A stretch of 64,000 bases of DNA from contig BOKR01000001.1 of NCBI GenBank assembly GCA_016861085.1, positions 195,271-259,270 of the forward strand, given 5' to 3'. How positions within the stretch are numbered: position 1 is the first letter of the stretch; each line of letters begins with the position of its first letter. This document shows, one piece after another, positions 43,707-55,378 of this stretch. This DNA is from Patescibacteria group bacterium. GTDB taxonomy: Bacteria > Patescibacteriota > Microgenomatia > UBA1400 > PJMF01. The position numbers and the translations under genes are program-made. The notes under the pieces are model-generated. The model saw only the letters and a program-made list of their open reading frames with translations. It was not told the DNA's origin and ran no database searches.

Positions 43707-44744
43707 CTAGATTTCTGGAAACATAACTCGAAGAAATTCTTGAGCAACGTCTTTCTTTTTTCCGACCAATGGGTATTGATTCCAGTCCAAGCTTGGCGAA
43801 GAATTAATTTCAATTATTTTATATGAGTCCCTATTTTGATTAGTAAAAATATTTTTCGACATGAAATCGATACCGCATAATGCTAAGCCAGGTATAGCTC
43901 TAATTGTCTTCAAAGCAATTTTAAGCACGCTTGGGTGGACAGAATCTGTTAAATCAATAGTATCTCCCCCAAGACTAACATTCATGGCACTTTGCGGACG
44001 TAATAAAATTTGTTCATTCTTTTTTGGAATACTTTTTGGAGTCAAATTTTGATTTTTTAGGAAGCTTATGACTTCATCGTCAATAATGAGTTCATGATAT
44101 GTTGGAATGCTTTGCCTGATTGTATTTGTATTTTTCTTCTTGATGAGTTCGTGAATTGTTGATTTCCCATTACCTATAACATTTGCAGCAACTCTTTTGA
44201 TAATACTTAATACCTTTGCTTGAGTTGCTAGAATTCTAAATTCTTCGCCAATGAACATTTCTTCAATCAAAAGGTCAACTGATTTTTCTCCATAATAAGT
44301 TCGAACATTCATAATAGCTTGTTGAAATTTCTCAAAGGAATTCAAGTTTAAATGTACATTATTTCCTCGTTCATCGGAAATTGGTTTAATAACCAGTGGC
44401 TTTTTCATACCATCAAACAACTGCTGATAACATTCAATAGCATCGCCACTTTCAAGCAGAAATCCATGAGTTACCGATATGCCAGCTCGTTGCAACATGT
44501 GTTTGGCTATTCGTTTATCTTTACAGCAATAGTGCGCAAATGCGGTAGTTTCAGAAGGAACTTGTCCATAAAAGTATTTTTCGGTGTTTTTGTATTGTAG
44601 TCTGAACATTGCGGTATATGGAATTATTTCCCAAGAGATTCCCAATTTCTCAGCCTCTTCTATGACAAGAAGCGTGCTCTTACTGATTTTTTTTAGTTTA
44701 TCTTTTCCTAAAATAGTTTTTCTCTTTTGAAATATATCGTTCAT
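43707..44744 (-). CDS. Cyanophycin-synthetase-like ATP-grasp ligase: the CphA G-domain only, with no Mur-ligase domain
   Basis: VIKPISDERGNNVHL, NVIGNGKSTIHELIKKKN (CphA HVIGDGRSTIRELIEKEN), VSLGGDTIDLTDSVHP (CphA LSTGGTAIDRTDEIHP) and IIEINSSP (ATP-grasp Mg site). The protein stops after the grasp domain at 345 aa. Confidence 0.65.
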   Translation of the reverse strand: MNDIFQKRKTILGKDKLKKISKSTLLVIEEAEKLGISWEIIPYTAMFRLQYKNTEKYFYGQVPSETTAFAHYCCKDKRIAKHMLQRAGISVTHGFLLESGDAIECYQQLFDGMKKPLVIKPISDERGNNVHLNLNSFEKFQQAIMNVRTYYGEKSVDLLIEEMFIGEEFRILATQAKVLSIIKRVAANVIGNGKSTIHELIKKKNTNTIRQSIPTYHELIIDDEVISFLKNQNLTPKSIPKKNEQILLRPQSAMNVSLGGDTIDLTDSVHPSVLKIALKTIRAIPGLALCGIDFMSKNIFTNQNRDSYKIIEINSSPSLDWNQYPLVGKKKDVAQEFLRVMFPEI

Positions 44745-46858: not shown

Positions 46859-47713
46859 ATGAAAATATTAATTCTAACTACAGATACTGGAGCCACGCAT
46901 ACTGGCACCAGTGTTAGTTCGAGTACGGGTTTACTTCTTGACAGTTTGAAAAAAAATCACGAAGTGACACTCGCACTTTTTTCACAACTCTCACTGACGA
47001 TTGCAAAAGACAGCATACACATTGCGTACAAATCAACAGACATAAAATTGTTTGATTTCATTATTTTCAGATCAACAGATGATACTGAATTTAATATGGA
47101 ATGGTTGGCACAGATTGTTGGCGACTACTGTCTGGCAAATAACATAAAAAATATTAATGCTCAACATTATGCTTCTTTTGGTAATAGATGGAATAAATTG
47201 CAGCAAATCGAATTTTTTACTAGAAATGGTTTTTTAGTTCCTCACACCAAGTTCGGATACATTGAAAACTCACACTTTCCGCTCATTGCCAAGCCTTTAA
47301 TAGGAAGCCAAGGCAAAGGCATTCATATGGTAGCTTCAAAGAAAGAGCTAGTTCCACATTTAGGTACAATATATCAAGAGGTGCTTCCAAATAGACAAGA
47401 TTATAGAGTTCTTGTTTTGGGAGAAAAAATTCTTGGAGTTATGCTTAGAAAAGCCAATACTAATTCAGTAGTGAGTAATATCTCTGCAGGTGGAATAGGA
47501 GAAAAATCTGTAATTGACCCTCAGTTACAAGAAATCTCACTTCGTCTTGCACGGCTAAGCCGGCTCGATTTCTGTGGCATAGATCTAATGAAAAATAAGG
47601 ATGATGAATATGCTGTTCTGGAAGTCAATAGAAATCCAGGTTTTTTGGGATTTCAGAAAGTGACGGGTATTGAGGTTACTGCAGAAATTGAGGCACACTT
47701 ATCTGCATCGTGA
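46859..47713 (+). CDS. rimK: RimK-like ATP-grasp alpha-L-glutamate ligase (paralog A)
   Basis: IAKPLIGSQGKGIHMV, YRVLVLGEKILGVMLR, and the EVNRNPGFLGFQKVTG Mg-binding region. Confidence 0.75.
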   Translation: MKILILTTDTGATHTGTSVSSSTGLLLDSLKKNHEVTLALFSQLSLTIAKDSIHIAYKSTDIKLFDFIIFRSTDDTEFNMEWLAQIVGDYCLANNIKNINAQHYASFGNRWNKLQQIEFFTRNGFLVPHTKFGYIENSHFPLIAKPLIGSQGKGIHMVASKKELVPHLGTIYQEVLPNRQDYRVLVLGEKILGVMLRKANTNSVVSNISAGGIGEKSVIDPQLQEISLRLARLSRLDFCGIDLMKNKDDEYAVLEVNRNPGFLGFQKVTGIEVTAEIEAHLSAS

Positions 47714-48568
47714 AATGAGATACTCAATTATTTTGAGTGGAATGTCAATTCCCGTTGCTTGCATGAAGCCATTAAACTGAGGGGCTCTGTTCACCTCCAT
47801 AACCATGAGTTTTCCATTCATATCTTTGATTAAGTCAACACCTGCTATTTCATATTGCATGCTCTGTGCTGCAGCAAGAGTAAGGTTTTTTTCTTCATCT
47901 GAGAGATTGTATATTTCTGCCGAACCTCCCAGTGATACATTATTTCTAAATTCAGATTCATCTTGGCGGTATCTTTTGATTGCTCCTTGAATTGTATTCC
48001 CGATAACAAACACACGAATATCACCCTCATTGTCAACAAATTTTTGGATTATCAAAGATTGGTTTTCACTCTCAAACACATCAAGCAATTCATCAAGGGA
48101 ATGACACTTATATACACCTTCACCTTTTGAACCATCAGTGACTTTTGCGATAACAGGATACGTAATTTTTTCTTTGATCATCTCAAATGATTTTTTTGAT
48201 ACAAAATAGCTATCGATGATTGGAATATTATTCTGTCTCAGCCTCTGGTATTCAAAGCTTTTTCGATCAATCCATGGTCTGTTATGACAAAAGACGCTGT
48301 CAATAACTGGAATAGAATGTGATAAACAAAATTCTGAAATGAGAGCTTCTTCTTCGATGTATGGTCCAACAGTTCTAAAGAAAACGATATCAAAATCAAG
48401 TATGTTGTGTTCACCGATATACAACTCATGATTTTGCTGGGAGTATTTTATTAGTAATTCATCAAGTTTTTTGATAACAAGTTCCACTCCTAATTTTTTT
48501 GCAGCTTCAGTAAAAAGTGGCTCATGCAAGTATTGTGTTTTTTTAACTAAAAAAAGAATTTTTTTCAT
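47699..48568 (-). CDS. rimK: RimK-like ATP-grasp alpha-L-glutamate ligase (paralog B, convergent with paralog A with a 15-nt overlap of their 3' ends)
   Basis: PVIAKVTDGSKGEGVYK, DIRVFVIGN, EVNRAPQFNGFMQATGIDIP. Confidence 0.75.
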   Translation of the reverse strand: MKKILFLVKKTQYLHEPLFTEAAKKLGVELVIKKLDELLIKYSQQNHELYIGEHNILDFDIVFFRTVGPYIEEEALISEFCLSHSIPVIDSVFCHNRPWIDRKSFEYQRLRQNNIPIIDSYFVSKKSFEMIKEKITYPVIAKVTDGSKGEGVYKCHSLDELLDVFESENQSLIIQKFVDNEGDIRVFVIGNTIQGAIKRYRQDESEFRNNVSLGGSAEIYNLSDEEKNLTLAAAQSMQYEIAGVDLIKDMNGKLMVMEVNRAPQFNGFMQATGIDIPLKIIEYLISRCR

Positions 48569-48584
48569 AGATTCTTATATACTA

Positions 48585-49541
48585 TTATAGTTCGTTGTAG
48601 TCTCCTATTTTTTTAATTTCTTGTGCGTATTTTTCTTTGCTCAGTGAAAGGAAACTGGGTAGTTGAGGGTGAAACTTGGGGTTGAGTAAGATAGCTTTTT
48701 CTACGTCTTCTAGAGCCAGTTTTCCAAAATACAAATTTGTGCTGTCAAAATTATTTTTTTTCAGCCACCCATAAACGTCTATAAGTCCTTCAAAATAAAC
48801 TAGGTCCTTAGTATAGCCTCCAGGTTTACTGGTGTCAGTAAGTCCCCTTTTTTTCTTGAGTGCCATTAGCCAGCGTCGTTCTGGATTTTGGATATATGTT
48901 CCAAGGAAATTCCAAATTTCAACAAACGATGCATGCTGTGCTTTGGATACTGTTATGTAGTCAAGAGCAGACCAATAAGCAAACTTAAAGCTACGAGGCA
49001 TAAGAAAATGTAGTGTTGCTAATCCTTCTTCTGTTTTTAAGTAATCTGAGAACCCATATTTTTTTTTGCTTTTGAACCACGGTTGTTTTTCGTAGTTAAT
49101 TCTTCGTAATGCGTGTGTACCAACTTCGTGATACAGCATGCCCAGTAATCCTTCTTTTCTAAAATCAGGTGGGAGTCTCAATTTTATAGTATCAGCTGTA
49201 ATGCTTGTTCTTGAAACGAATGATGAGGACCATACAATTTTGAATCGTTTTTGCAAATTATGCATATGCAAAAATGTATAAATTGTTTTTTCAATATCAC
49301 GCTGTGAAACAACTGGACCTTCCATTTTTTGCAGGTCATCTTCTGTTTTGCCAAAGTATGCTTTTTCAACAATATTTTCTGCTATTTTGAGATATGCATT
49401 TGTAGTTGGTCCATATTTTTCTAATTTGTTTTGGTCAATTGATTCTGCATATCTAAATTGTGGATTGTAGGTTTGGTCGGCAAAAAACTTTTCTTTTTCT
49501 TGGTTGAGATTTTTAGGAATAAGTGAGGTTACAAAAGACAT
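48585..49541 (-). CDS. DUF1704 / MATCAP-family putative metallopeptidase ('QEGLA-motif' protein)
   Basis: Atypical HExxxH zinc motif (YHEVGTH) and the TEEGLATL equivalent of the QEGLA signature. Confidence 0.6.
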   Translation of the reverse strand: MSFVTSLIPKNLNQEKEKFFADQTYNPQFRYAESIDQNKLEKYGPTTNAYLKIAENIVEKAYFGKTEDDLQKMEGPVVSQRDIEKTIYTFLHMHNLQKRFKIVWSSSFVSRTSITADTIKLRLPPDFRKEGLLGMLYHEVGTHALRRINYEKQPWFKSKKKYGFSDYLKTEEGLATLHFLMPRSFKFAYWSALDYITVSKAQHASFVEIWNFLGTYIQNPERRWLMALKKKRGLTDTSKPGGYTKDLVYFEGLIDVYGWLKKNNFDSTNLYFGKLALEDVEKAILLNPKFHPQLPSFLSLSKEKYAQEIKKIGDYNEL

Positions 49542-49547
49542 AGATTT

Positions 49548-50837
49548 TTATTCTATTTCGTCGTCGCCAACAAGAAATCCCTGAAGATCTTTTCGGCCCA
49601 ACTCAATTTTGTGTTTTAATTTATTTAATTTCTTCACAACAATCATCGCGGTTGTAATCTTTTTATCTTTGATTTTTATCTTAACTTCAATAACTGGTAC
49701 TTTGCCCTCAATGATTTCTTGTTGTCTCCATAACAAATCATCAATGTCAAATAACCCAAGGTCATGAGCAAATTTTTCACTAATCGCACTGCGATATCTA
49801 CCTGTATTGACTAAAGTTTCAGACTCGTGTTCCTTATTATTTTCGTCATAGACTATAATAGTTGGTTGGGTTGAGATAACTTGTACTCCTGCATCAATTT
49901 TTATTTGATCTGAAAAATTATGTGTAAATAAAGCCTGAGCAACTTTTACCCCATGTTTTGGACTGGTAATTTCCAAGCCCTCTACTCGCTCAATTCTTCG
50001 TTTTAACCCTGCTCTATTACAAATTTGAATAGAAAGCCCCGGGAAACCGTTCAGTTCTACGATCATGGGACCTTTTTCAGGGTGAATAAAAATATCAGCT
50101 CCCATAAACTTATATCCAGCCACACTGGCTGCTTTCACAGCGGTTTCAAGTACCCTATTCCAGTGTGGGATTTTGATCCCAGAGACTTTTTTTTTGGTTC
50201 CTGGAAAATGTGTAATTCGCTCTTTTTTTCCTTTGACAGCATAGGTTGTCAATCCTGTTGCAATGTCTATTCCAAGGCCAATAGCTCCCTGGTCTAGGTT
50301 AGCTTTGCCTTCTGACTCTTTGGTTGGAATACGAGCCATGGCCATAACTGGGACAGAGTTAAACACGACGACTCGAATGTCAGGCGTCCCTTTGTATGAA
50401 TATTTGCTTAGGTCTGGATGAGCTGGTATTTTTTCTTCTAAAATTGCTTTGTGTGCGCTGCCCCAAGTGCTAAACTCGCCATCAAGGATGTTGTTAACAT
50501 GGAGGTTTAGGTCATCTTCAGAAATAGTTGCCCCTGTAGACAGTTTCCACTGTGCTTTGTTTGTCAGTTTTTTTGTGACTACCCAAATTCCTTTACCCGC
50601 ACTGCCGCTGGCAGGTTTCAAAACGAACGGAACAGGAATAATTTCCCAATTAATATTGTCTATATCTTGCAATGTTTCAAAGACATGAAACACTTGTGCT
50701 GTTGCTATATTATTCTCGATAAGCAACTCTTTTGTTTTGAGTTTAGAAAAACCATAGTTTTTGGCTTTGATAGAGTTCAATTTGGTGTACTGATACCTGG
50801 CGTTCATGCCAAGGATATGAGATGGTTTAACTGACAT
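49548..50837 (-). CDS. Fusion of a RimK-related ATP-grasp ligase (alpha-L-glutamate ligase-like) with a C-terminal retropepsin-like 'ATP-dependent Zn protease' (PF05618-like) domain
   Basis: The ATP-grasp carries LKPASGSAGKGIWVV, DIRVVVFNSVPVMAMARIP and IVELNGFPGLS. The C-terminal approx. 100 aa align to the RimK-associated retropepsin-like domain (..LVNTGRYRSAIS.. versus family ..DTGAxTSxL..; C-terminal ELGRKDLQGFLVGDDE versus LLGRxAL.GxFLVDP). Confidence 0.6.
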   Translation of the reverse strand: MSVKPSHILGMNARYQYTKLNSIKAKNYGFSKLKTKELLIENNIATAQVFHVFETLQDIDNINWEIIPVPFVLKPASGSAGKGIWVVTKKLTNKAQWKLSTGATISEDDLNLHVNNILDGEFSTWGSAHKAILEEKIPAHPDLSKYSYKGTPDIRVVVFNSVPVMAMARIPTKESEGKANLDQGAIGLGIDIATGLTTYAVKGKKERITHFPGTKKKVSGIKIPHWNRVLETAVKAASVAGYKFMGADIFIHPEKGPMIVELNGFPGLSIQICNRAGLKRRIERVEGLEITSPKHGVKVAQALFTHNFSDQIKIDAGVQVISTQPTIIVYDENNKEHESETLVNTGRYRSAISEKFAHDLGLFDIDDLLWRQQEIIEGKVPVIEVKIKIKDKKITTAMIVVKKLNKLKHKIELGRKDLQGFLVGDDEIE

Positions 50838-50842
50838 GGACG

Positions 50843-51802
50843 TTATTCTTCCTCTTCAATTAAAGACCTAAAACGTAATCGCTCGCTGATTCTTAAACCG
50901 ACGAACTTTCCAATCAAAATGTTAATAAAGCCTGAAAAGAACATAAGAAGTTCTGGTTCTGATAATGCAAATTGCTGGAGTGGCTCCCATTTTAGTAAGA
51001 ACCCAGAAACCACAGCCAAAGCAATTGTTTCAATTGTCAACGCAAGTGCTTCACTCTGCTTAGTCCTTGCTTGAGCATCTAAGAAGTTTTCTGCCAAAAG
51101 GATCAAAATTAAAATTGGGAATATATTGACACTTAATAAAGTGTTTAGTTTCACAAATGGTGCTACGACCAATGTGACAAAAATACCGATAGAAACTATC
51201 CAAAGTAGTAACGCAGTTCGGGGGAGATATGAAATTTTCGCAAGTTTAAGGAAGCGTTTTGCAATTAAAGCAGCAATGGCAATCACAAAGAAAATTAACA
51301 AGCCTTCAATAACACCTGTTGAGACAAGTGCAACCGAAAGAACAGCAGGAATGTAAATTCCAAAACCTCTCAGACCAATAATGTGTCTAGATGCGGCAAT
51401 AAAAGATGCAATCAATGGGAACAAGAGCAACAACACAAGCACGTTCACTGGTAAACCATTAGCAACAGCTTGTCTAATAGCATGTTGCAAAAAATTATTC
51501 CAATTTAACTTTTCTGGAGGGTTTTCATCAAGATATGCCTCAAGCCTACTTTTTTGTTTACCTCCAGTTTCGGTAATGTCTTGATCTTTTTTTTCTTGGA
51601 TTTTTTCAACGATTTCGGCAGAAGGAGTGGCTAATCTAGCGCTATCAGTGGCTTCCCCTGCTTGTGTAGCGACAGAAGTGGTGTCTATCACAATTTCTGC
51701 ATCTTCTAGGGTCACTGCGTAAGAAATTTTTGGGTTGAGAACTAGCGCAAAGGAAGTAAAGAACGCAAAAAAAACTACTACTGCTAATTGGCTGATCTTC
51801 AT
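50843..51802 (-). CDS. Seven-TM membrane protein, a 7TM_transglut-like module without a transglutaminase domain
   Basis: N-terminal signal/TM, an approx. 90-aa extracytoplasmic segment, then seven hydrophobic helices. It lies immediately upstream of the ATP-grasp/retropepsin gene with a 5-nt gap. I preferred the start at the ATG 51800-51802. Confidence 0.5.
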   Translation of the reverse strand: MKISQLAVVVFFAFFTSFALVLNPKISYAVTLEDAEIVIDTTSVATQAGEATDSARLATPSAEIVEKIQEKKDQDITETGGKQKSRLEAYLDENPPEKLNWNNFLQHAIRQAVANGLPVNVLVLLLLFPLIASFIAASRHIIGLRGFGIYIPAVLSVALVSTGVIEGLLIFFVIAIAALIAKRFLKLAKISYLPRTALLLWIVSIGIFVTLVVAPFVKLNTLLSVNIFPILILILLAENFLDAQARTKQSEALALTIETIALAVVSGFLLKWEPLQQFALSEPELLMFFSGFINILIGKFVGLRISERLRFRSLIEEEE

Positions 51803-51821
51803 AGGTATATTATACCTTACA

Positions 51822-52217
51822 TCACAAAATCTTGCTGATAATGGAATGGACGAAGCCAAGTAAAATCGATACAAATACAAGTGACCAAAATTGAGACAAT
51901 TGTGTGCCAAATACTATCATTTCTTGAATATGAAATCCTGGGACTAAATAGGTGGCTAGCCAAAGGAGAAAAATATTGATTATTCCAGAGAATAATCCAA
52001 GTGTGATTATATTTATAGGAAGAAATAGTAATTTGAGTACTGGTCTGACCAATGAATATAGGATTGTGAGAACGATACTTGCAATTATTAAGGTTGCCAA
52101 ACTGGTGAAACCAACAGTAGGCAACGCCCAAGCCAGGACACCTAATGTAAAAGCTGTTATTAGTATTGCTCGCAACATATTACTATGTAGTATAGCAAAT
52201 TGTGAAACGCTACTCAA
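51822..52217 (-). CDS. DUF360 (phage holin 4_2-like) small 4-TM membrane protein
   Basis: VRPVLKLLFLPINIITLGLFSGIINIFLLWLAT matches the DUF360 core (RPxL..LxLP...LTLGLF..V.NA). Confidence 0.5.
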   Translation of the reverse strand: MSSVSQFAILHSNMLRAILITAFTLGVLAWALPTVGFTSLATLIIASIVLTILYSLVRPVLKLLFLPINIITLGLFSGIINIFLLWLATYLVPGFHIQEMIVFGTQLSQFWSLVFVSILLGFVHSIISKIL

Positions 52218-53655
52218 ACATTGCTGTTAACCGCTTTTTCTTGTGTTGCTTTTGTGCAAAGCGATGTGACTCATCTCTAATCTGCTGAATTAGTTTTAGT
52301 GTTGGATGACTTGAATCAAGTTTAACGAGGTGGTATTTAAGGTTACTTATTTTTCTACCATGTTCCACTTGTGTTTCGTAATATGGCAAGACTAGCCTAT
52401 CTGGATTCTTAGCGATCCCGATTACAGGTACGTACCATTTCCATAGTTTCAAAACTGATTTTACTTGTCCTTTACCACCGTCAATCAAGACTAAATTTGG
52501 AGTCCCCCACTCTGGGTGGTTTTGTCTTCTAACGATTGCTTCTTGCAACATATGAAAATCATTTGGCGTATTAAGCGTTTTAATGTTAAAAATGCGGTAT
52601 TGGTCTGTGTCTGGTTGTCCATTAGTAAAGGTAACCAACGAAACAGCTGGATTTGTACCTTGGATGTTGCTGACGTCGTAACCTTCTATTCTAGTAAGTG
52701 GCATTTGCTTTGGAAGGCCTAAATATTGGGAAAGAATTTTTTGTAAGTAAATAACGCCATCCTCACTAATTTGTTCTTTGAGTGCTGCAGTTGTGAGTTC
52801 AGGCTTTAGTTTGTGTTGCTTGCTGGTAACTTCTGCAATCAATTTAAGTTGATCTCGCACAACTGCAGCCTCCTCATAATTTTGGGTTTCGATTGCTTGC
52901 CCCATTTTTTGTTGCAGTGAGTCGGTAACTAACTTTTTTTTACCTCTCAAAAAATGAATTAAATTTTGAATATTTTCGTTATATTTTCCTGGGGAAATCT
53001 CACCAATACAGGCACCTGGACACAAATCTAAGTGGTAATAAAAGCATGGTTGATTATCCTTGTTTCTTCTATTTTCGTGTGCTAGTTTTTTATTGCACCA
53101 AGGAAAAATTTTTCGAGCAATGTTCAAGACTTCATTTGTTTTATAGGCACTGGGAAATGGTCCAAGGACTGTTGTCCCATTTCGTTGTTTTTTTTGTAAC
53201 TCTTTTTTTCTAACTTTTAATACCCTAGGATAAACTTCATCGGTAATTTCTATGTATAGTGGACTCTTGTCGTCTTTTAAAAGTGTGTTGTATTCTGGTT
53301 GGTAGGTTCGAATCAGTTCAGCTTCAACCAACAATGCTTGTAGTTCACTTTCAAGTACTTTGTGTTTGACGGTTTGAGCGAGTGAAACCATCTGTTTTAT
53401 TTTGCTTGTTAGCAGTGGATATTTGGCGTACGAACTAACTCTGTTCTTGAGTTTCTTGGCTTTTCCGACGTATAAGACTTGAGAGTTTTGGCCGATAAAC
53501 CAATACACTCCCGGTGACAAGGGTAATGATGATAAAGCCGACTCCCAAATAAAGGTAGGTTTCTTGTTTTTGGAGGGCGGTAATGAGCTGTGGTCCGCTG
53601 ACGATTTGTTGTTGGGCTGGTTCATAAAGTGCTTCTCCAGTGTTTTTCCATACAT
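52210..53655 (-). CDS. uvrC: Excinuclease ABC subunit C, a short form without the C-terminal (HhH)2 domain
   Basis: GIY-YIG (PGVYWFIGQNSQVLYVGKAKKLKNRVSSY), UvrBC-interaction region, and RNase H-like endonuclease domain. The true start is uncertain: the ATG-defined N-terminus overlaps the upstream gene by about 220 nt, and a TTG at 53518-53520 just before the GIY-YIG domain is an alternative. Confidence 0.8.
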   Translation of the reverse strand: MYGKTLEKHFMNQPNNKSSADHSSLPPSKNKKPTFIWESALSSLPLSPGVYWFIGQNSQVLYVGKAKKLKNRVSSYAKYPLLTSKIKQMVSLAQTVKHKVLESELQALLVEAELIRTYQPEYNTLLKDDKSPLYIEITDEVYPRVLKVRKKELQKKQRNGTTVLGPFPSAYKTNEVLNIARKIFPWCNKKLAHENRRNKDNQPCFYYHLDLCPGACIGEISPGKYNENIQNLIHFLRGKKKLVTDSLQQKMGQAIETQNYEEAAVVRDQLKLIAEVTSKQHKLKPELTTAALKEQISEDGVIYLQKILSQYLGLPKQMPLTRIEGYDVSNIQGTNPAVSLVTFTNGQPDTDQYRIFNIKTLNTPNDFHMLQEAIVRRQNHPEWGTPNLVLIDGGKGQVKSVLKLWKWYVPVIGIAKNPDRLVLPYYETQVEHGRKISNLKYHLVKLDSSHPTLKLIQQIRDESHRFAQKQHKKKRLTAMFE

Positions 53656-55378
53656 AGTTTACCGTGATTTCGCTTCTTTTTGGAACTGACAAACCTTTTG
53701 TGAAGAACGTTGCTGAAAAGGTTTTTGTTTGATATGGCAATAATACTGCTAAAGTACTATTTTCTCCCAGTGCTACATCTATTTCAGGATCCTGCGCTAT
53801 AATCTGTGGTTGTATATCATACCAGGCCTGTCCAGTGTCGTTACTAATTGAAATAGTGAACATGCCCGGAATAGGAATAAAAAAGAATTTTTTTTGCTCA
53901 ACTTTTGTTGAAATTGCTGGGCCGATATTTGGGAACGGTTCGTCACTAATAGTGACGTCTACGTCTTTCGTTTCCTCTTGTGAAAGTGCTTTATAGCTTC
54001 CTGCTGGGTTGGGAAGGGTGCTGGAATTACCATTAATTGCAAACACAATATGGTTGAGATCAAATAGGTTGAAGTAGTCTACTCCTCCAGTGGTGTTTCC
54101 CCATGTGGGATCAATAGGAATCCAACGATTCTGTTGCTGATCAAAATATTCTGGCCAAGAATGTAGGATATCACCTGCAAAACTGAGTGGTCGTAGGATT
54201 GAGTTTTCTGAGTACGCATACCCTACTAATCTTCGAGCGGGTATATTTGCTGCTCTGGCAATCGCAATAAAGCTATCTGTGAATTCTTGACAGACCGCAT
54301 CTTCACTGTTCTTAAATGCGTCGACAGCTCCATAGCGAGTTAGTGTCTCTAGAGTGATTTCCCTTCTAGAGTACTGTAGGGTATCAACTACATGATCATA
54401 TATAGATTCAGCGGTTGGAAACGACTGTGCTTTTTCTTTGATTATTGAGTTATTACTCTCCCAGTATTTATCATTTTGGGTATGATTTTTTTGCACCGGG
54501 ACTCCTGGAACGATTATATTTGGTTCAAGGGTTACTTGGGCTACTGCTGTTAAATGTACTACAGTTACAGATGAAGCAGGAATTTTATATGAGGCGATCC
54601 AATTCCCATCGGCATCTTGTTTTATTTCTTCAGGAAGTGGATCAAGATCATGGTAGTGGAGCTTTTGATATTGTGTGTCTGGCGGTAAGGCAATTTGTGC
54701 AATAGCTGGACTACTAGAGGGATTTTCTAGGTGATATCTTAGTGTCATTTTGTAATTTTGTTCCGTGCCAAAGATTGCTGAAATTGGTTCACCTTTTGGG
54801 AGGTCAAATACAATTTTGGCTTCAGTCTGAACAAACTCTGACGAGGTTGGGGTTGGGGTAACCCTAACGGGAAGCGAGAAAAAAACTGGAGTGTAGAGAA
54901 TTGTTCTATTTGAATCGAATGTATTTTCATCTCCAAGTTGAGGAATATGGACTTCTAGAACTCTTCCGGCTACTAAAGCCACATCTGGATTTGAGTACTC
55001 AATAGTGAAATCTCTGACTTTTCCTTGGCCAACAACTTCATCTTCAAAAGTAATTCCAATACTTGTCCCACTTTCGTTACTGACAATGTTTGCTGGAATC
55101 TCTTTTGACCCCGATTTTACTATGATATTTTGCAAGCCAAAATAAGTTGTCTTTAGCGCATATTGTTTAAGATAAATAGTTGGTGTTTTATTGGTTATTC
55201 GTATATGGTGAGAAACGAACGTATTGCCATCTCTTGAAACTCTATATGTCGTTTCAATGGTTGTATTAAAATTTTCTTTTGCAGTATTTTCTTGTGCCAA
55301 AACAGATGAAGCGCTAAAAGGTAGCGTCAAAAAGAACAAGAAAAAAACAGTAAAAATACCACGTAATAATTGACGCAT
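53435..55378 (-). CDS. Secreted/membrane-anchored transglutaminase-like cysteine protease (TGc) with a large N-terminal beta-rich domain
   Basis: Signal peptide, a TGc core with Cys (VCQEFTD), His (LHSWPEY) and Asp (IPIDPT) in canonical order and spacing, and a C-terminal TM helix with a basic tail. Confidence 0.65.
   Translation of the reverse strand: MRQLLRGIFTVFFLFFLTLPFSASSVLAQENTAKENFNTTIETTYRVSRDGNTFVSHHIRITNKTPTIYLKQYALKTTYFGLQNIIVKSGSKEIPANIVSNESGTSIGITFEDEVVGQGKVRDFTIEYSNPDVALVAGRVLEVHIPQLGDENTFDSNRTILYTPVFFSLPVRVTPTPTSSEFVQTEAKIVFDLPKGEPISAIFGTEQNYKMTLRYHLENPSSSPAIAQIALPPDTQYQKLHYHDLDPLPEEIKQDADGNWIASYKIPASSVTVVHLTAVAQVTLEPNIIVPGVPVQKNHTQNDKYWESNNSIIKEKAQSFPTAESIYDHVVDTLQYSRREITLETLTRYGAVDAFKNSEDAVCQEFTDSFIAIARAANIPARRLVGYAYSENSILRPLSFAGDILHSWPEYFDQQQNRWIPIDPTWGNTTGGVDYFNLFDLNHIVFAINGNSSTLPNPAGSYKALSQEETKDVDVTISDEPFPNIGPAISTKVEQKKFFFIPIPGMFTISISNDTGQAWYDIQPQIIAQDPEIDVALGENSTLAVLLPYQTKTFSATFFTKGLSVPKRSEITVNYVWKNTGEALYEPAQQQIVSGPQLITALQKQETYLYLGVGFIIITLVTGSVLVYRPKLSSLIRRKSQETQEQS

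What the first reader, a model, noticed from the sequence alone, without database searches (positions are those of the whole stretch)
49548..50837. ATP-grasp ligase fused to a retropepsin-like domain whose catalytic Asp appears replaced by Asn
The C-terminal approx. 100 aa align to the RimK-associated retropepsin-like (PF05618) domain, but the position of the D-T/S-G catalytic motif reads N-T-G (LVNTGRY). An Asn substitution would inactivate an aspartic protease. The domain may therefore serve as a substrate-binding or dimerisation module, or the alignment register may be off by a few residues. Fusion of ligase and peptidase-like domains in one polypeptide is itself notable.
Basis: inference. 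Interest (0 to 1): 0.55.

Follow-up and report, generated by a model that had tools for sequence, protein, structure and literature searches.

The report
Ligase fused to a dead retropepsin domain
A peptide-ligase gene of an ultrasmall (Patescibacteria) bacterium carries a C-terminal retroviral-type protease domain whose catalytic aspartate is replaced by asparagine. This loss occurs in the lineages where a different, metal-dependent peptidase (a relative of the human tubulin-trimming enzyme MATCAP) has joined the same gene cluster.

Summary
ORF 49548..50837 (-) encodes 429 aa. Residues 1-306 are an RloC/TIGR02291-type ATP-grasp ligase. Residues ~319-424 fold as a retropepsin: all top Foldseek hits are Ddi1, RloA, 2pma or retroviral proteases.

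Pfam PF05618 does not hit the window protein directly. A profile of the domain does retrieve 129 relatives, and about 100 of them carry DTG/DSG in the column of N344. 94 of the 129 match PF05618. The register is therefore right: DTGA has become NTGR.

The fusion is not rare. It is the standard form in Patescibacteria, always downstream of an RloB-like 7TM gene, and 62 of 80 species loci keep DTGA. The window belongs to one clade in which the motif is degenerate (N in 107 of 119 orthologs). A MATCAP-like metallopeptidase gene sits directly downstream only in that clade. About 800-aa ligase-retropepsin-MATCAP triple fusions show the same decay (DTGA in 5 of 120).

The domain stays well conserved. 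I read it as a catalytically dead but functional module that binds acidic peptide, dimerises or activates the ligase, with hydrolysis handed to the MATCAP-like enzyme. It is a new variant of the Rim/Rlo systems. Interest is moderate.

The parts
49920..50837 (-). ATP-grasp ligase domain (aa 1-306) of the 429-aa protein. It is RloC-like (alpha-L-glutamate ligase-like).
   Evidence: TIGR02291 E 2.4e-76 (256.7 bits, below the 314.2 equivalog cutoff). PF14397 E 3.8e-60. The full-length AF2 model has pLDDT 88.7. Its nearest solved folds are ArgX/LysX, RimK and the cyanophycin synthetase ATP-grasp domain. K74, G81, G83, D248, E261 are invariant and N263 nearly invariant across divergent homologs.
49884..49919 (-). 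Interdomain linker (aa 307-318).
   Evidence: pLDDT below 50 for residues 308-317 in the full-length model. Mean pairwise identity over the wider 300-325 segment is 59%, the lowest of the regions measured.
49566..49883 (-). Retropepsin-like (clan AA, PF05618-related) domain, aa 319-424. The catalytic motif DTGA is replaced by NTGR.
   Evidence: Foldseek PDB top hits are Ddi1 RVP (E 5.7e-5), RloA2 9g59, RloA 9g58 and 2pma (TMq 0.53-0.55), and EIAV protease. The profile search finds DTGA-bearing PF05618 relatives. The C-terminal IELGRKDL aligns with the family's hydrophobic-G-R-x-D-L motif.
49794..49814 (-). LVNTGRY (aa 342-348). N344 (codon AAT, 49806..49808) occupies the catalytic Asp column. 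T345 is the 'fireman's grip' Thr. R347 replaces the usual Ala.
49551..49565 (-). Short acidic C-terminal tail DDEIE (aa 425-429).
   Evidence: Tails in this subclade average 4.6 aa and 58% D/E, and 62 of 116 end in Glu. DTGA-clade tails are basic (VNK, VSK, AKK). The significance is unknown.
50843..51910 (-). RloB-like 7TM membrane protein gene, 5 nt upstream. The real start is probably the internal MKISQ... It has no recognisable inactive-transglutaminase domain.
   Evidence: PF14402 E 1.1e-22 (profile positions 54-247). NF052267 RloB E 1.6e-15, matching only profile positions 314-507 of 508. A 7TM gene lies immediately upstream of the fusion gene in 79 of 80 related loci.
48585..49541 (-). 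MATCAP-like (DUF1704/QEGLA) metallocarboxypeptidase gene, 6 nt downstream. Its catalytic motifs are intact.
   Evidence: PF08014 E 1e-21. Human MATCAP/KIAA0895L, PDB 7z5g, E 3.7e-40 over aa 5-312. HEVGTH (HExxxH) and TEEGLA are present. Among the 80 loci it is found downstream only in degenerate-motif loci L001-L013.
47699..48568 (-). RimK-family ATP-grasp ligase, 16 nt downstream of the MATCAP-like gene and the last gene of the minus-strand operon.
   Evidence: TIGR00768 E 9.9e-49 (166 bits, above the 143.4 cutoff). PF08443 E 6.9e-37. In most of the DTGA loci, one or two RimK-like genes lie just downstream of the fusion gene.
46859..47713 (+). Second RimK-like ATP-grasp ligase, convergent, overlapping the other RimK gene's 3' end by 15 nt.
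   Evidence: PF08443 E 1.5e-23. TIGR00768 E 1.4e-28. The same convergent pair is present in L001.
43707..44744 (-). Cyanophycin-synthetase-like ATP-grasp protein (matches the ATP-grasp region of cyanophycin synthetase). It is a possible peripheral member, separated from the cluster by mnmA and truB.
   Evidence: TIGR02068 E 1.1e-64, profile positions 153-473. Homologs lie directly downstream of the fusion gene in several distant loci, and three tandem copies occur in L010.

Best explanation
The gene encodes a cytoplasmic RloC-type ATP-grasp peptide ligase with a C-terminal retropepsin domain of the RimB/RloA lineage. It sits in a Patescibacteria version of the Rim/Rlo systems, in the order 7TM (RloB-like), ligase::retropepsin, MATCAP-like peptidase, RimK.

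The ancestral state of the fusion is an intact DTGA protease. By analogy with RimB/RimK, that protease would trim or release the acidic, probably alpha-glutamate-rich, chain made by the ligase.

In the window's clade the active site was remodelled from DTGA through DTGR to NTGR. The domain can therefore no longer hydrolyse peptide bonds. It is nevertheless kept under purifying selection.

I infer that it now works non-catalytically. It may act as a dimerisation and activating module for the ligase, as RimB does for RimK. It may also act as a clamp that holds the acidic product or substrate tail in a still basic cleft.

The hydrolytic step is carried out instead by the MATCAP-like HExxxH metallocarboxypeptidase encoded 6 nt downstream.

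Shown here: domain identities, the position of the Asn, conservation, gene order, and the co-occurrence of MATCAP with motif decay. Inferred: inactivity (from D-to-N mutants of relatives), the binding or activating role, the handover to MATCAP, and the chemical nature of the product.
For: Fold and homology:
- The retropepsin fold is confirmed.
- A domain profile retrieves relatives down to E about 1e-21 that carry AK(I/V)DTGAxR(S/T)SID in register with LVNTGRYRSAIS.
- 94 of the 129 relatives match PF05618. P0136, P0182, P0137, P0188, P0179 and P0234 score above its gathering cutoff.

Inactivity:
- RloA D48N and D48A were used as catalytically inactive controls (PMC12239564).
- RimB D31E shows no detectable proteolysis yet still titrates down wild-type RimB, presumably by forming inactive heterodimers (PMC11957791).

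A precedent for a non-proteolytic role:
- RimB binds RimK directly, raises its ATPase activity about fourfold, and is needed for efficient poly-alpha-Glu synthesis (PMC11957791).

Selection on the domain among 119 orthologs:
- Mean pairwise identity is 61% for the retropepsin domain and 71% for the ligase domain. It is 69% for the motif segment and 75% for the flap-equivalent segment.
- T345, R349 and D367 are invariant, and R347 and S350 are nearly invariant.

Context in 80 species-representative loci:
- A 7TM gene is directly upstream in 79.
- 62 loci have DTGA and 2 have DTGR, and none of these has a MATCAP gene downstream.
- 13 of the 15 assessable degenerate-motif loci (L001-L013), plus the window, have MATCAP immediately downstream.

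Phylogeny:
- In an NJ tree built on the ligase domain only, all xTGR forms make one clade. The MATCAP-less DTGR members are early branches within it.

Second lineage:
- In ~800-aa ligase-retropepsin-MATCAP triple fusions, DTGA survives in 5 of 120 and D[TS]G in 57 of 120.

Other points:
- The MATCAP-like protein keeps HExxxH and EEGLA and matches human MATCAP at E 3.7e-40.
- The ligase motifs are intact.
- No second retropepsin ORF exists in the 64-kb window.
Against: - No biochemical data exist for any member of this clade.
- The MATCAP correlation within the 80 loci is essentially one evolutionary event (one clade), so its statistical weight is small.
- L014 (NTKR) and L076 (NPSY) lost the motif without a MATCAP gene in the flank.
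- A small subgroup of triple fusions (P0179, P0251, P0252, P0256, P0267) keeps DTGA together with MATCAP, so MATCAP does not force decay.
- About half of the triple fusions keep D-T/S-G followed by a charged residue and might still be active.
- Two RloA poly-Glu-contacting positions are not basic here (K46 corresponds to L342, R114 to V380). Poly-Glu binding is therefore not assured, although K379, K402, R347 and R349 are basic.
- Dimerisation and the interdomain arrangement could not be tested. Only a monomer model was available, with no PAE.
- Only 64 kb of the genome was examined, so an active stand-alone retropepsin elsewhere cannot be excluded.
Confidence: 0.6

Rival explanations
1. The domain is still a working protease. 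It would use an unconventional mechanism, for example another carboxylate such as D364 or D367 from the flap-equivalent segment, or an Asn-dependent lyase-type self-cleavage, or it would act as a heterodimer with an Asp-bearing partner encoded elsewhere.
For: - The site is highly conserved rather than decayed: T345 invariant, G346 in 85 of 119, R347/R349/S350 nearly invariant.
- Clade-specific conserved acidic residues D364, D367, E374 and E377 lie in the flap-equivalent segment.
- 9 of 119 orthologs have Asp at the position.
Against: - D-to-N at this position was used as a catalytically inactive control for RloA, and even D-to-E kills RimB.
- 8 of the 9 Asp-bearing orthologs have Lys in place of the motif Gly (DTKR). 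Those sampled in the tree (L004, L005) nest inside NTGR sequences, so they look like reversions in an already remodelled site.
- No second retropepsin ORF lies in the window.
- No precedent is known to me for a retropepsin using a flap carboxylate.
Confidence: 0.08
2. The retropepsin domain is a functionless evolutionary remnant, retained only because deleting it would destabilise the ligase.
For: - The catalytic residue is lost.
- The domain is somewhat less conserved than the ligase domain (61% against 71%).
- The motif is highly variable in the triple fusions.
Against: - 61% mean pairwise identity across orthologs whose overall identity goes down to 64% is far from neutral decay.
- The remodelled site itself and the flap-equivalent segment are among the best conserved stretches (69% and 75%), with several invariant residues.
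- The domain is present in all 80 of the best loci and in all 120 triple fusions examined, with no truncated variants other than those at contig ends.
Confidence: 0.12
3. The register is off or the domain is not a retropepsin, so NTG is a chance tripeptide.
For: - Direct Pfam, PDB-sequence and small-profile comparisons fail. There is no PF05618 hit, 0 PDB sequence hits, and hhalign probability is 0.9% against three PF05618 structures.
Against: - Foldseek hits are exclusively retropepsins.
- HMMER alignment to 129 relatives puts DTG or DSG in the same column in 103 of the 138 aligned domain stretches, with flanking AK.DTGAxRSSI aligned to LVNTGRYRSAI and matching C-terminal RPV...IGRxDL motifs.
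- Those relatives are PF05618 members by Pfam's own threshold.
Confidence: 0.02

Closest known systems
rloABC operon of Pseudomonas (RloA secreted retropepsin, RloB inactive-transglutaminase-7TM protein, RloC ATP-grasp); Lormand et al., mBio 2025 (PMC12239564)
   Same: - The ATP-grasp type is the same: TIGR02291/PF14397 is the best hit for the window ligase.
- A PF14402 7TM partner gene is adjacent.
- A PF05618-lineage retropepsin is part of the system.
   Different: - Here the retropepsin is fused to the C-terminus of the cytoplasmic ligase, with no signal peptide, instead of being a separate secreted enzyme.
- Its Asp is replaced by Asn.
- The 7TM protein matches only the C-terminal 7TM part of RloB, so no inactive transglutaminase domain is recognisable.
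- The cluster adds a MATCAP-like peptidase and RimK-type ligases.
- The host is Patescibacteria, whereas the paper reports RloB as 96% proteobacterial.
- The ligase scores below the TIGR02291 equivalog cutoff (256.7 against 314.2 bits).
RimB/RimK and the RimBK hybrid (Little et al., JBC 2025, PMC11957791)
   Same: - A retropepsin-like domain is physically coupled to a RimK-related ATP-grasp ligase.
- RimB has a non-proteolytic role as an activator of RimK ATPase and poly-alpha-Glu synthesis, which is the model for what a dead domain could still do.
   Different: - In RimBK the protease domain is N-terminal to a true RimK and is proteolytically active with DTG.
- Here it is C-terminal to an RloC-type ligase and lacks the Asp.
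- RimBK is reported mainly in Flavobacteriales and Rhodobacterales.
Pfam PF05618 (Zn_protease/DUF785; structures 2pma, 9g58, 9g59)
   Same: - Same fold: TMq 0.53-0.55.
- Shared C-terminal RPV...(L/I)G(R)xxL motifs.
- Intermediate DTGA relatives score above the PF05618 threshold.
   Different: - The window domain itself gives no PF05618 hit.
- The region between the post-motif helix and the RPV strand is about 22 aa here, against about 50 aa (long flap) in the RloA and 2pma sequences.
- DTGA has become NTGR.
MATCAP (KIAA0895L) / TTL tubulin detyrosination-tyrosination cycle (background is my own knowledge; the homology is tested)
   Same: - The operon pairs ATP-grasp C-terminal ligases with a MATCAP-family HExxxH carboxypeptidase. 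This is the same enzyme pairing that writes and erases the acidic tubulin tail modification.
- The window peptidase matches the human MATCAP catalytic domain at E 3.7e-40.
   Different: The system is bacterial, has no tubulin, and its substrate is unknown. The ligase is RloC/RimK-type, not TTL.
Engineered D25N HIV-1 protease and other pseudoproteases (own knowledge)
   Same: An Asp-to-Asn retropepsin keeps its fold and substrate binding but not catalysis. This is the behaviour proposed here.
   Different: D25N is a laboratory mutant. Here the change is natural, fixed in a clade, and accompanied by A-to-R remodelling of the pocket.

Membership tests
Clan AA retropepsin-like fold | Single-lobe beta-barrel retropepsin fold | tested here: met
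   The AF2 domain model has pLDDT 80.8, above 90 over most of the folded core. All 28 Foldseek PDB hits with E<=0.001 are retropepsin-type: Ddi1, RloA, 2pma, EIAV protease, APRc.
Clan AA retropepsin-like fold | Catalytic hydrophobic-hydrophobic-D-T/S-G-(A/S/T) motif | tested here: not met
   The motif reads L-V-N-T-G-R. The Asn lies in the Asp column of 103 DTG/DSG-bearing aligned domain stretches.
Clan AA retropepsin-like fold | Second conserved motif, hydrophobic-hydrophobic-Gly (here I-E-L-G-R-x-D-L), near the C-terminus | tested here: met
   IELGRKDL aligns with (L/I)IGRRDL of the DTGA relatives. G414 is nearly invariant and D417 invariant.
Clan AA retropepsin-like fold | Homodimer with the active site at the interface | not testable with these tools
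   Only monomer prediction is available. T345, the fireman's-grip Thr, is invariant, which is compatible with dimerisation but does not prove it.
Pfam PF05618 (RimB/RloA family) | Score at or above the PF05618 gathering threshold (27 bits) | tested here: not met
   The window protein or its isolated domain gives no PF05618 hit at E<=10. Relatives reached by its profile do pass, with 29.9-51.5 bits. It is therefore a divergent offshoot, not a Pfam-level member.
Pfam PF05618 (RimB/RloA family) | Endoproteolysis of poly-alpha-glutamate stretches | not testable with these tools
   This needs an enzyme assay. It is predicted to be absent because RloA D48N was used as an inactive control.
RloC / TIGR02291 alpha-L-glutamate ligase-like ATP-grasp | Match to the family models | tested here: inconclusive
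   PF14397 gives 203.9 bits, well above its 31.4 cutoff. TIGR02291 is the best NCBIfam hit, but its 256.7 bits fall below the 314.2 equivalog cutoff. It belongs to the same subfamily but is not a certified equivalog.
RloC / TIGR02291 alpha-L-glutamate ligase-like ATP-grasp | Intact ATP-grasp nucleotide and Mg-binding residues | tested here: met
   K74, G81, G83, D248 and E261 are invariant and N263 nearly invariant across homologs of 35-89% identity. Assigning these residues to ATP and Mg binding is by analogy with RimK (inference).
rloABC system | Adjacent RloB: inactive transglutaminase domain fused to 7TM | tested here: not met
   The adjacent 355-aa protein matches only the 7TM part: PF14402 positions 54-247, and NF052267 positions 314-507 of 508. 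No transglutaminase-like N-domain was detected.
rloABC system | Separate secreted RloA with a signal peptide and DTGA | tested here: not met
   The retropepsin is fused to the cytoplasmic ligase and carries NTGR. No other retropepsin ORF lies in the window.
RimBK hybrid | RimB domain N-terminal to a RimK-family ligase, proteolytically active | tested here: not met
   The domain order is reversed, the ligase is PF14397-type rather than TIGR00768, and the Asp is absent.
MATCAP / PF08014 (neighbour gene 48585..49541) | HExxxH zinc motif plus the conserved EEGLA glutamate, and a family HMM match | tested here: met
   PF08014 gives 77.8 bits against a 27-bit cutoff. HEVGTH and TEEGLA are present. 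Human MATCAP 7z5g matches at E 3.7e-40.

The most novel reading that the evidence does not exclude
In this Patescibacteria clade the retropepsin has been converted from an 'eraser' into a non-catalytic 'reader' or clamp for the acidic peptide tail that the ATP-grasp 'writer' builds. A MATCAP-type carboxypeptidase has been recruited as the new eraser. Together with the 7TM partner, this would be a bacterial writer-reader-eraser module for C-terminal amino-acid addition, using the same enzyme pairing (ATP-grasp ligase plus MATCAP) as the eukaryotic tubulin tail cycle. It would also give a direct handle on the still unknown product of RloC.
Probability: 0.25. Interest if true: 0.7.

Novelty: new variant of a known kind. 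Interest (0 to 1): 0.5.

Why it matters
The substrates and products of the RloABC system are unknown. [quoted passage not shown]

The Patescibacteria genes act as natural 'Rosetta stone' fusions. They show that the RloC-type ligase and the retropepsin work on the same molecule in the same compartment. They also show that the 7TM protein is an obligatory partner even without its transglutaminase-like domain.

A C-terminal metallocarboxypeptidase of the MATCAP family appears able to take over from the retropepsin. That points to a product with a free acidic C-terminus and suggests concrete assays.

The clade also offers a naturally occurring, conserved pseudo-retropepsin. It could be used to separate the activating or binding role of RimB/RloA-type domains from their proteolytic role.

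Finally, these are prokaryotic ATP-grasp plus MATCAP gene pairs and fusions. I could not find them described in the searchable literature.

Tried and rejected
Tests that failed or gave nothing:
- Direct hmmscan of the protein and of the isolated C-terminal 130 aa against Pfam and NCBIfam gave only sub-threshold clan AA hits and no PF05618.
- A profile of 55 orthologous domains against PDB sequences gave 0 hits at E<=10.
- hhalign of that profile against an alignment of three PF05618 structure sequences (9g59, 9g58, 2pma) gave probability 0.9% over 14 columns. The three-sequence profile is too thin, so I dropped this as a test rather than treating it as evidence against homology.
- Model coordinates are not exposed, so I could not superpose N344 on D48 of RloA. 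I used sequence register and secondary structure instead.

Literature searches:
- Searches for DUF1704 or MATCAP together with ATP-grasp, and for this system in Patescibacteria, found nothing relevant.
- The 2009 Iyer/Aravind amidoligase paper is not held under the PMC id I tried. From memory it predicted ATP-grasp / 7TM-transglutaminase / aspartyl protease neighbourhoods. I therefore do not cite it as evidence.

Ideas rejected:
- Sequencing error at N344. It is N in 107 of 119 orthologs.
- A second, active retropepsin nearby. None was found in six-frame ORFs of the window.
- Treating Fisher-type statistics on the 80 loci as independent evidence. The NJ tree shows the degenerate forms are one clade. 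I therefore looked for an independent lineage, the triple fusions, as a refutation attempt. The trend held, with a minority of exceptions.
Full report
**What is there**

The ORF at 49548..50837 on the minus strand is real and encodes 429 aa. An identical protein is on record as 'MAG: hypothetical protein BroJett025_02280 [Patescibacteria group bacterium]', on a contig of 1.17 Mb. The window has about 38% G+C.

Residues 6-306 are an ATP-grasp ligase. The best hits are TIGR02291 'alpha-L-glutamate ligase-like protein' (E 2.4e-76) and PF14397 (E 3.8e-60). The TIGR02291 score of 256.7 bits is below that model's equivalog cutoff of 314.2.

In a full-length AF2 model (mean pLDDT 88.7, pTM 0.81) this part most resembles three kinds of solved structure: ArgX/LysX, RimK and the ATP-grasp domain of cyanophycin synthetase. 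All three enzymes extend a carboxylate of a peptide or protein. Residues 308-317 are predicted to be disordered, forming a linker.

**Is the C-terminal domain a retropepsin, and is the Asn in the catalytic column?**

Direct sequence tests are weak:
- There is no PF05618 hit at all. The only hits are TIGR03698 clan_AA_DTGF at E 0.0057 and PF13975 at E 0.04.
- A profile of 55 orthologous domains finds nothing among PDB sequences.
- hhalign against three PF05618 structure sequences is insignificant.

Structure settles the fold. The AF2 model of aa 300-429 (pLDDT 80.8, above 90 over most of the folded core) hits only retropepsin-type proteins in the PDB. These include Ddi1 RVP domains (best E 5.7e-5), Pseudomonas RloA2 and RloA (9g59, 9g58) and Legionella 2pma (TMq 0.53-0.55), EIAV protease and Rickettsia APRc.

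A full HMMER scan of 1.84 billion representative proteins with the domain profile settles the register. It returned 129 proteins at E<=1e-3. Of the 138 aligned domain stretches from these proteins, the column of N344 reads DTG in 97 and DSG in 6. The flanks agree too: AK(I/V)DTGAxR(S/T)SID aligns with LVNTGRYRSAIS. The C-terminal RPVIEV...IGRRDLxGFLV aligns with VPVIEV...ELGRKDLQGFLV.

Ninety-four of the 129 proteins match PF05618. Individually scanned examples exceed its gathering score, at 29.9-51.5 bits against 27. The window's domain is thus a divergent offshoot of the RimB/RloA family in which DTGA has become NTGR.

The substitution is fixed, not an error. It is N in 107 of 119 close orthologs, D in 9 and S in 3. 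Eight of the nine Asp-bearing orthologs have Lys in place of the motif Gly (DTKR).

**How common is the fusion?**

A scan of one genome per species (GTDB) found 598 relatives. The best 80 loci are Patescibacteria-type MAGs: Woese-, Shapiro-, Pace-, Moran-, Dojka-, Kerfeld- and Saccharibacteria. Some records are titled 'uncultured Pseudomonadales/Gammaproteobacteria/Bdellovibrionales bacterium'. They share the window's synteny, so these titles look mislabelled.

All 80 loci encode the ligase-retropepsin fusion, and 79 have a PF14402-type 7TM gene immediately upstream. Sixty-two carry DTGA and two carry DTGR. The fusion is therefore the normal architecture of this system in Patescibacteria, and its ancestral state is a canonical protease motif.

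A related hybrid with the opposite domain order, RimB-RimK, has been published and is proteolytically active (PMC11957791).

**The gene cluster**

On the minus strand, separated by 5, 6 and 16 nt, lie four genes:
- A 7TM protein that matches only the C-terminal 7TM part of RloB.
- The ligase-retropepsin gene.
- A 318-aa MATCAP/DUF1704 protein.
- A RimK-family ligase.

A second RimK-like gene converges on the operon from the plus strand.

The MATCAP-like protein matches the catalytic domain of human MATCAP (PDB 7z5g) at E 3.7e-40. It keeps the HExxxH (HEVGTH) and EEGLA motifs.

The closest described system is rloABC of Pseudomonas (PMC12239564). It comprises a secreted retropepsin RloA, the inactive-transglutaminase-7TM protein RloB and the ATP-grasp RloC. 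The products of that system are unknown. RloA cleaves stretches of eight or more glutamates in vitro, and RloA D48N was used there as a catalytically inactive control.

**The pattern that gives the Asn its meaning**

Among the 80 loci, a MATCAP gene lies immediately downstream of the fusion gene only in L001-L013. All 13 have a degenerate motif: NTGR, KTGR, NTSR or DTKR. None of the 64 DTG loci has a MATCAP gene. Most of those have RimK-like or cyanophycin-synthetase-like ATP-grasp genes downstream instead.

An NJ tree built from the ligase domain alone shows all xTGR forms as one clade. DTGR members without MATCAP (L017, L052, P0128) branch early within it. The DTKR forms nest among NTGR forms. 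The likely order of events is DTGA, then DTGR, then NTGR with MATCAP.

Because that is essentially one event, I looked for an independent lineage as an attempt to refute the idea. There is a large family of ~800-aa ligase-retropepsin-MATCAP triple fusions in Peregrinibacteria and other Patescibacteria. They lie elsewhere in the tree. They keep DTGA in only 5 of 120 and any D-T/S-G in 57 of 120. The rest read DTSK, DPxx, DSSQ, NTGK and so on.

The trend therefore recurs, with exceptions. A small subgroup around P0179 has both DTGA and MATCAP. L014 and L076 lost the motif without MATCAP in the flank.

**Is the dead domain still functional?**

Mean pairwise identity among the 119 orthologs is 61% for the retropepsin domain and 71% for the ligase. 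The remodelled motif segment (69%) and the flap-equivalent segment (75%) are among the best conserved parts. T345 (the fireman's-grip Thr), R349 and D367 are invariant, and R347 and S350 are nearly so. The domain is never missing in the loci or fusions examined. This argues against a decaying remnant.

**Mechanism proposed**

Shown: the protein is a cytoplasmic ligase with intact ATP-grasp motifs, joined to a retropepsin scaffold that lacks the catalytic carboxylate.

Inferred: it cannot cleave peptides. The basis is RloA D48N, RimB D31E and, from my own knowledge, HIV-1 PR D25N.

Inferred by analogy with RimB: the domain serves as a dimerising and activating module, and/or as a clamp for the acidic chain. 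RimB binds RimK, raises its ATPase activity about fourfold and is needed for efficient poly-alpha-Glu synthesis. RimB D31E also still titrates down wild-type RimB, presumably by forming inactive heterodimers.

New basic residues R347 and R349, with K379 and K402, line the former active site. Two RloA poly-Glu contacts are not conserved, however (K46 corresponds to L342, R114 to V380).

Inferred from gene order and co-occurrence: the MATCAP-like carboxypeptidase supplies the hydrolytic step. The 7TM protein is an obligatory partner of unknown role, possibly export or membrane anchoring.

**Comparison and novelty**

This is a Rim/Rlo-type system, but it fails several defining features of each named family:
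- It is not a Pfam-level PF05618 member.
- It has no DTG.
- It has no secreted RloA.
- It has no transglutaminase-like domain on the 7TM protein.
- Its domain order is reversed relative to RimBK.

I file it as a new variant of a known kind.

I found three things described nowhere in the searchable literature:
- The Patescibacteria-wide ligase-retropepsin fusion.
- The conserved pseudo-retropepsin clade.
- The link between MATCAP-family genes or fusions and decay of the retropepsin motif.

Absence from this library is not proof of novelty.

**Limits**

- There is no biochemistry for any member of the clade.
- Only monomer models were available, without coordinates or PAE.
- The tree is NJ on 300 columns.
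- Neighbourhoods were judged within flanks of 6 kb or less.
- Only 64 kb of the genome was inspected.

Noticed in passing
window 48585..49541 (-): The 318-aa protein is a close homolog of the catalytic domain of human MATCAP/KIAA0895L, the tubulin detyrosinase (PDB 7z5g, E 3.7e-40). HExxxH and EEGLA are intact. It lies in an operon with three ATP-grasp ligases, which is a prokaryotic ligase plus MATCAP pairing.
   Followed up: partly
proteins P0179, P0249-P0367: There is a large family of ~800-aa triple fusions, ATP-grasp_ST + retropepsin + MATCAP, in Peregrinibacteria and Patescibacteria. The retropepsin motif is canonical DTGA in only 5 of 120. P0179 is named 'ketopantoate hydroxymethyltransferase' in NCBI, which is evidently a misannotation.
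   Followed up: partly
proteins P0188, P0192, P0221, P0225, P0248, P0234: In these proteins a DTGA retropepsin domain is fused N-terminally to the PF14402 7TM domain, where RloB has its inactive transglutaminase. P0234 has two tandem retropepsin domains before the 7TM, which could form a pepsin-like pseudo-dimer in one chain.
   Followed up: no
window 43707..44744 (-); L010 8218..11217; L042, L057, L064, L076, L078: A stand-alone ATP-grasp protein resembles the ATP-grasp region of cyanophycin synthetase (TIGR02068 E 1.1e-64). Homologs sit directly downstream of the ligase-retropepsin gene in several distant loci, with three tandem copies in L010. The cluster may therefore assemble a hetero-peptide rather than plain poly-Glu.
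   Followed up: partly
window 49551..49565 (-), aa 425-429: The window protein ends in an acidic tail, GDDEIE. In its subclade the tails are 58% D/E and 62 of 116 end in Glu, whereas DTGA-clade tails are basic (VNK, VSK, AKK). A possibility is a self-substrate or a mimic of an RpsF- or tubulin-like acidic C-terminus. This is untested.
   Followed up: no
L001, L002, L005, L008-L010 and others: Records titled 'uncultured Pseudomonadales / Gammaproteobacteria / Bdellovibrionales bacterium ... binchicken' encode proteins up to 86% identical to the window's. They share its uvrA-transglutaminase-uvrC-...-7TM synteny. The titles look like taxonomic mislabels of Patescibacteria MAGs.
   Followed up: partly
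window 53435..55378 (-): A 647-aa secreted or membrane protein has a transglutaminase-core domain (PF01841, E 3.3e-15). It is conserved two genes upstream of the cluster in L001-L009 and L020, in the order uvrA, TGase, uvrC, PF04020 protein, 7TM. It is unclear whether this is functional linkage or plain synteny. Its ORF overlaps the listed uvrC ORF by about 220 nt, so one of the two listed start codons is probably too far upstream.
   Followed up: partly
L034, L036, L038, L042-L080 (Moranbacteria-type); P0216: Many DTGA-type fusions have an insertion of about 35-50 aa in the flap region of the retropepsin domain, which splits the HMM match in two. The window clade instead has a shortened, acidic flap-equivalent segment (DIDDLLWRQQEIIEGK).
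   Followed up: no
window 46859..47713 (+) and 47699..48568 (-): Two RimK-family genes converge and overlap by 15 nt at their 3' ends. The same arrangement is seen in L001.
   Followed up: no
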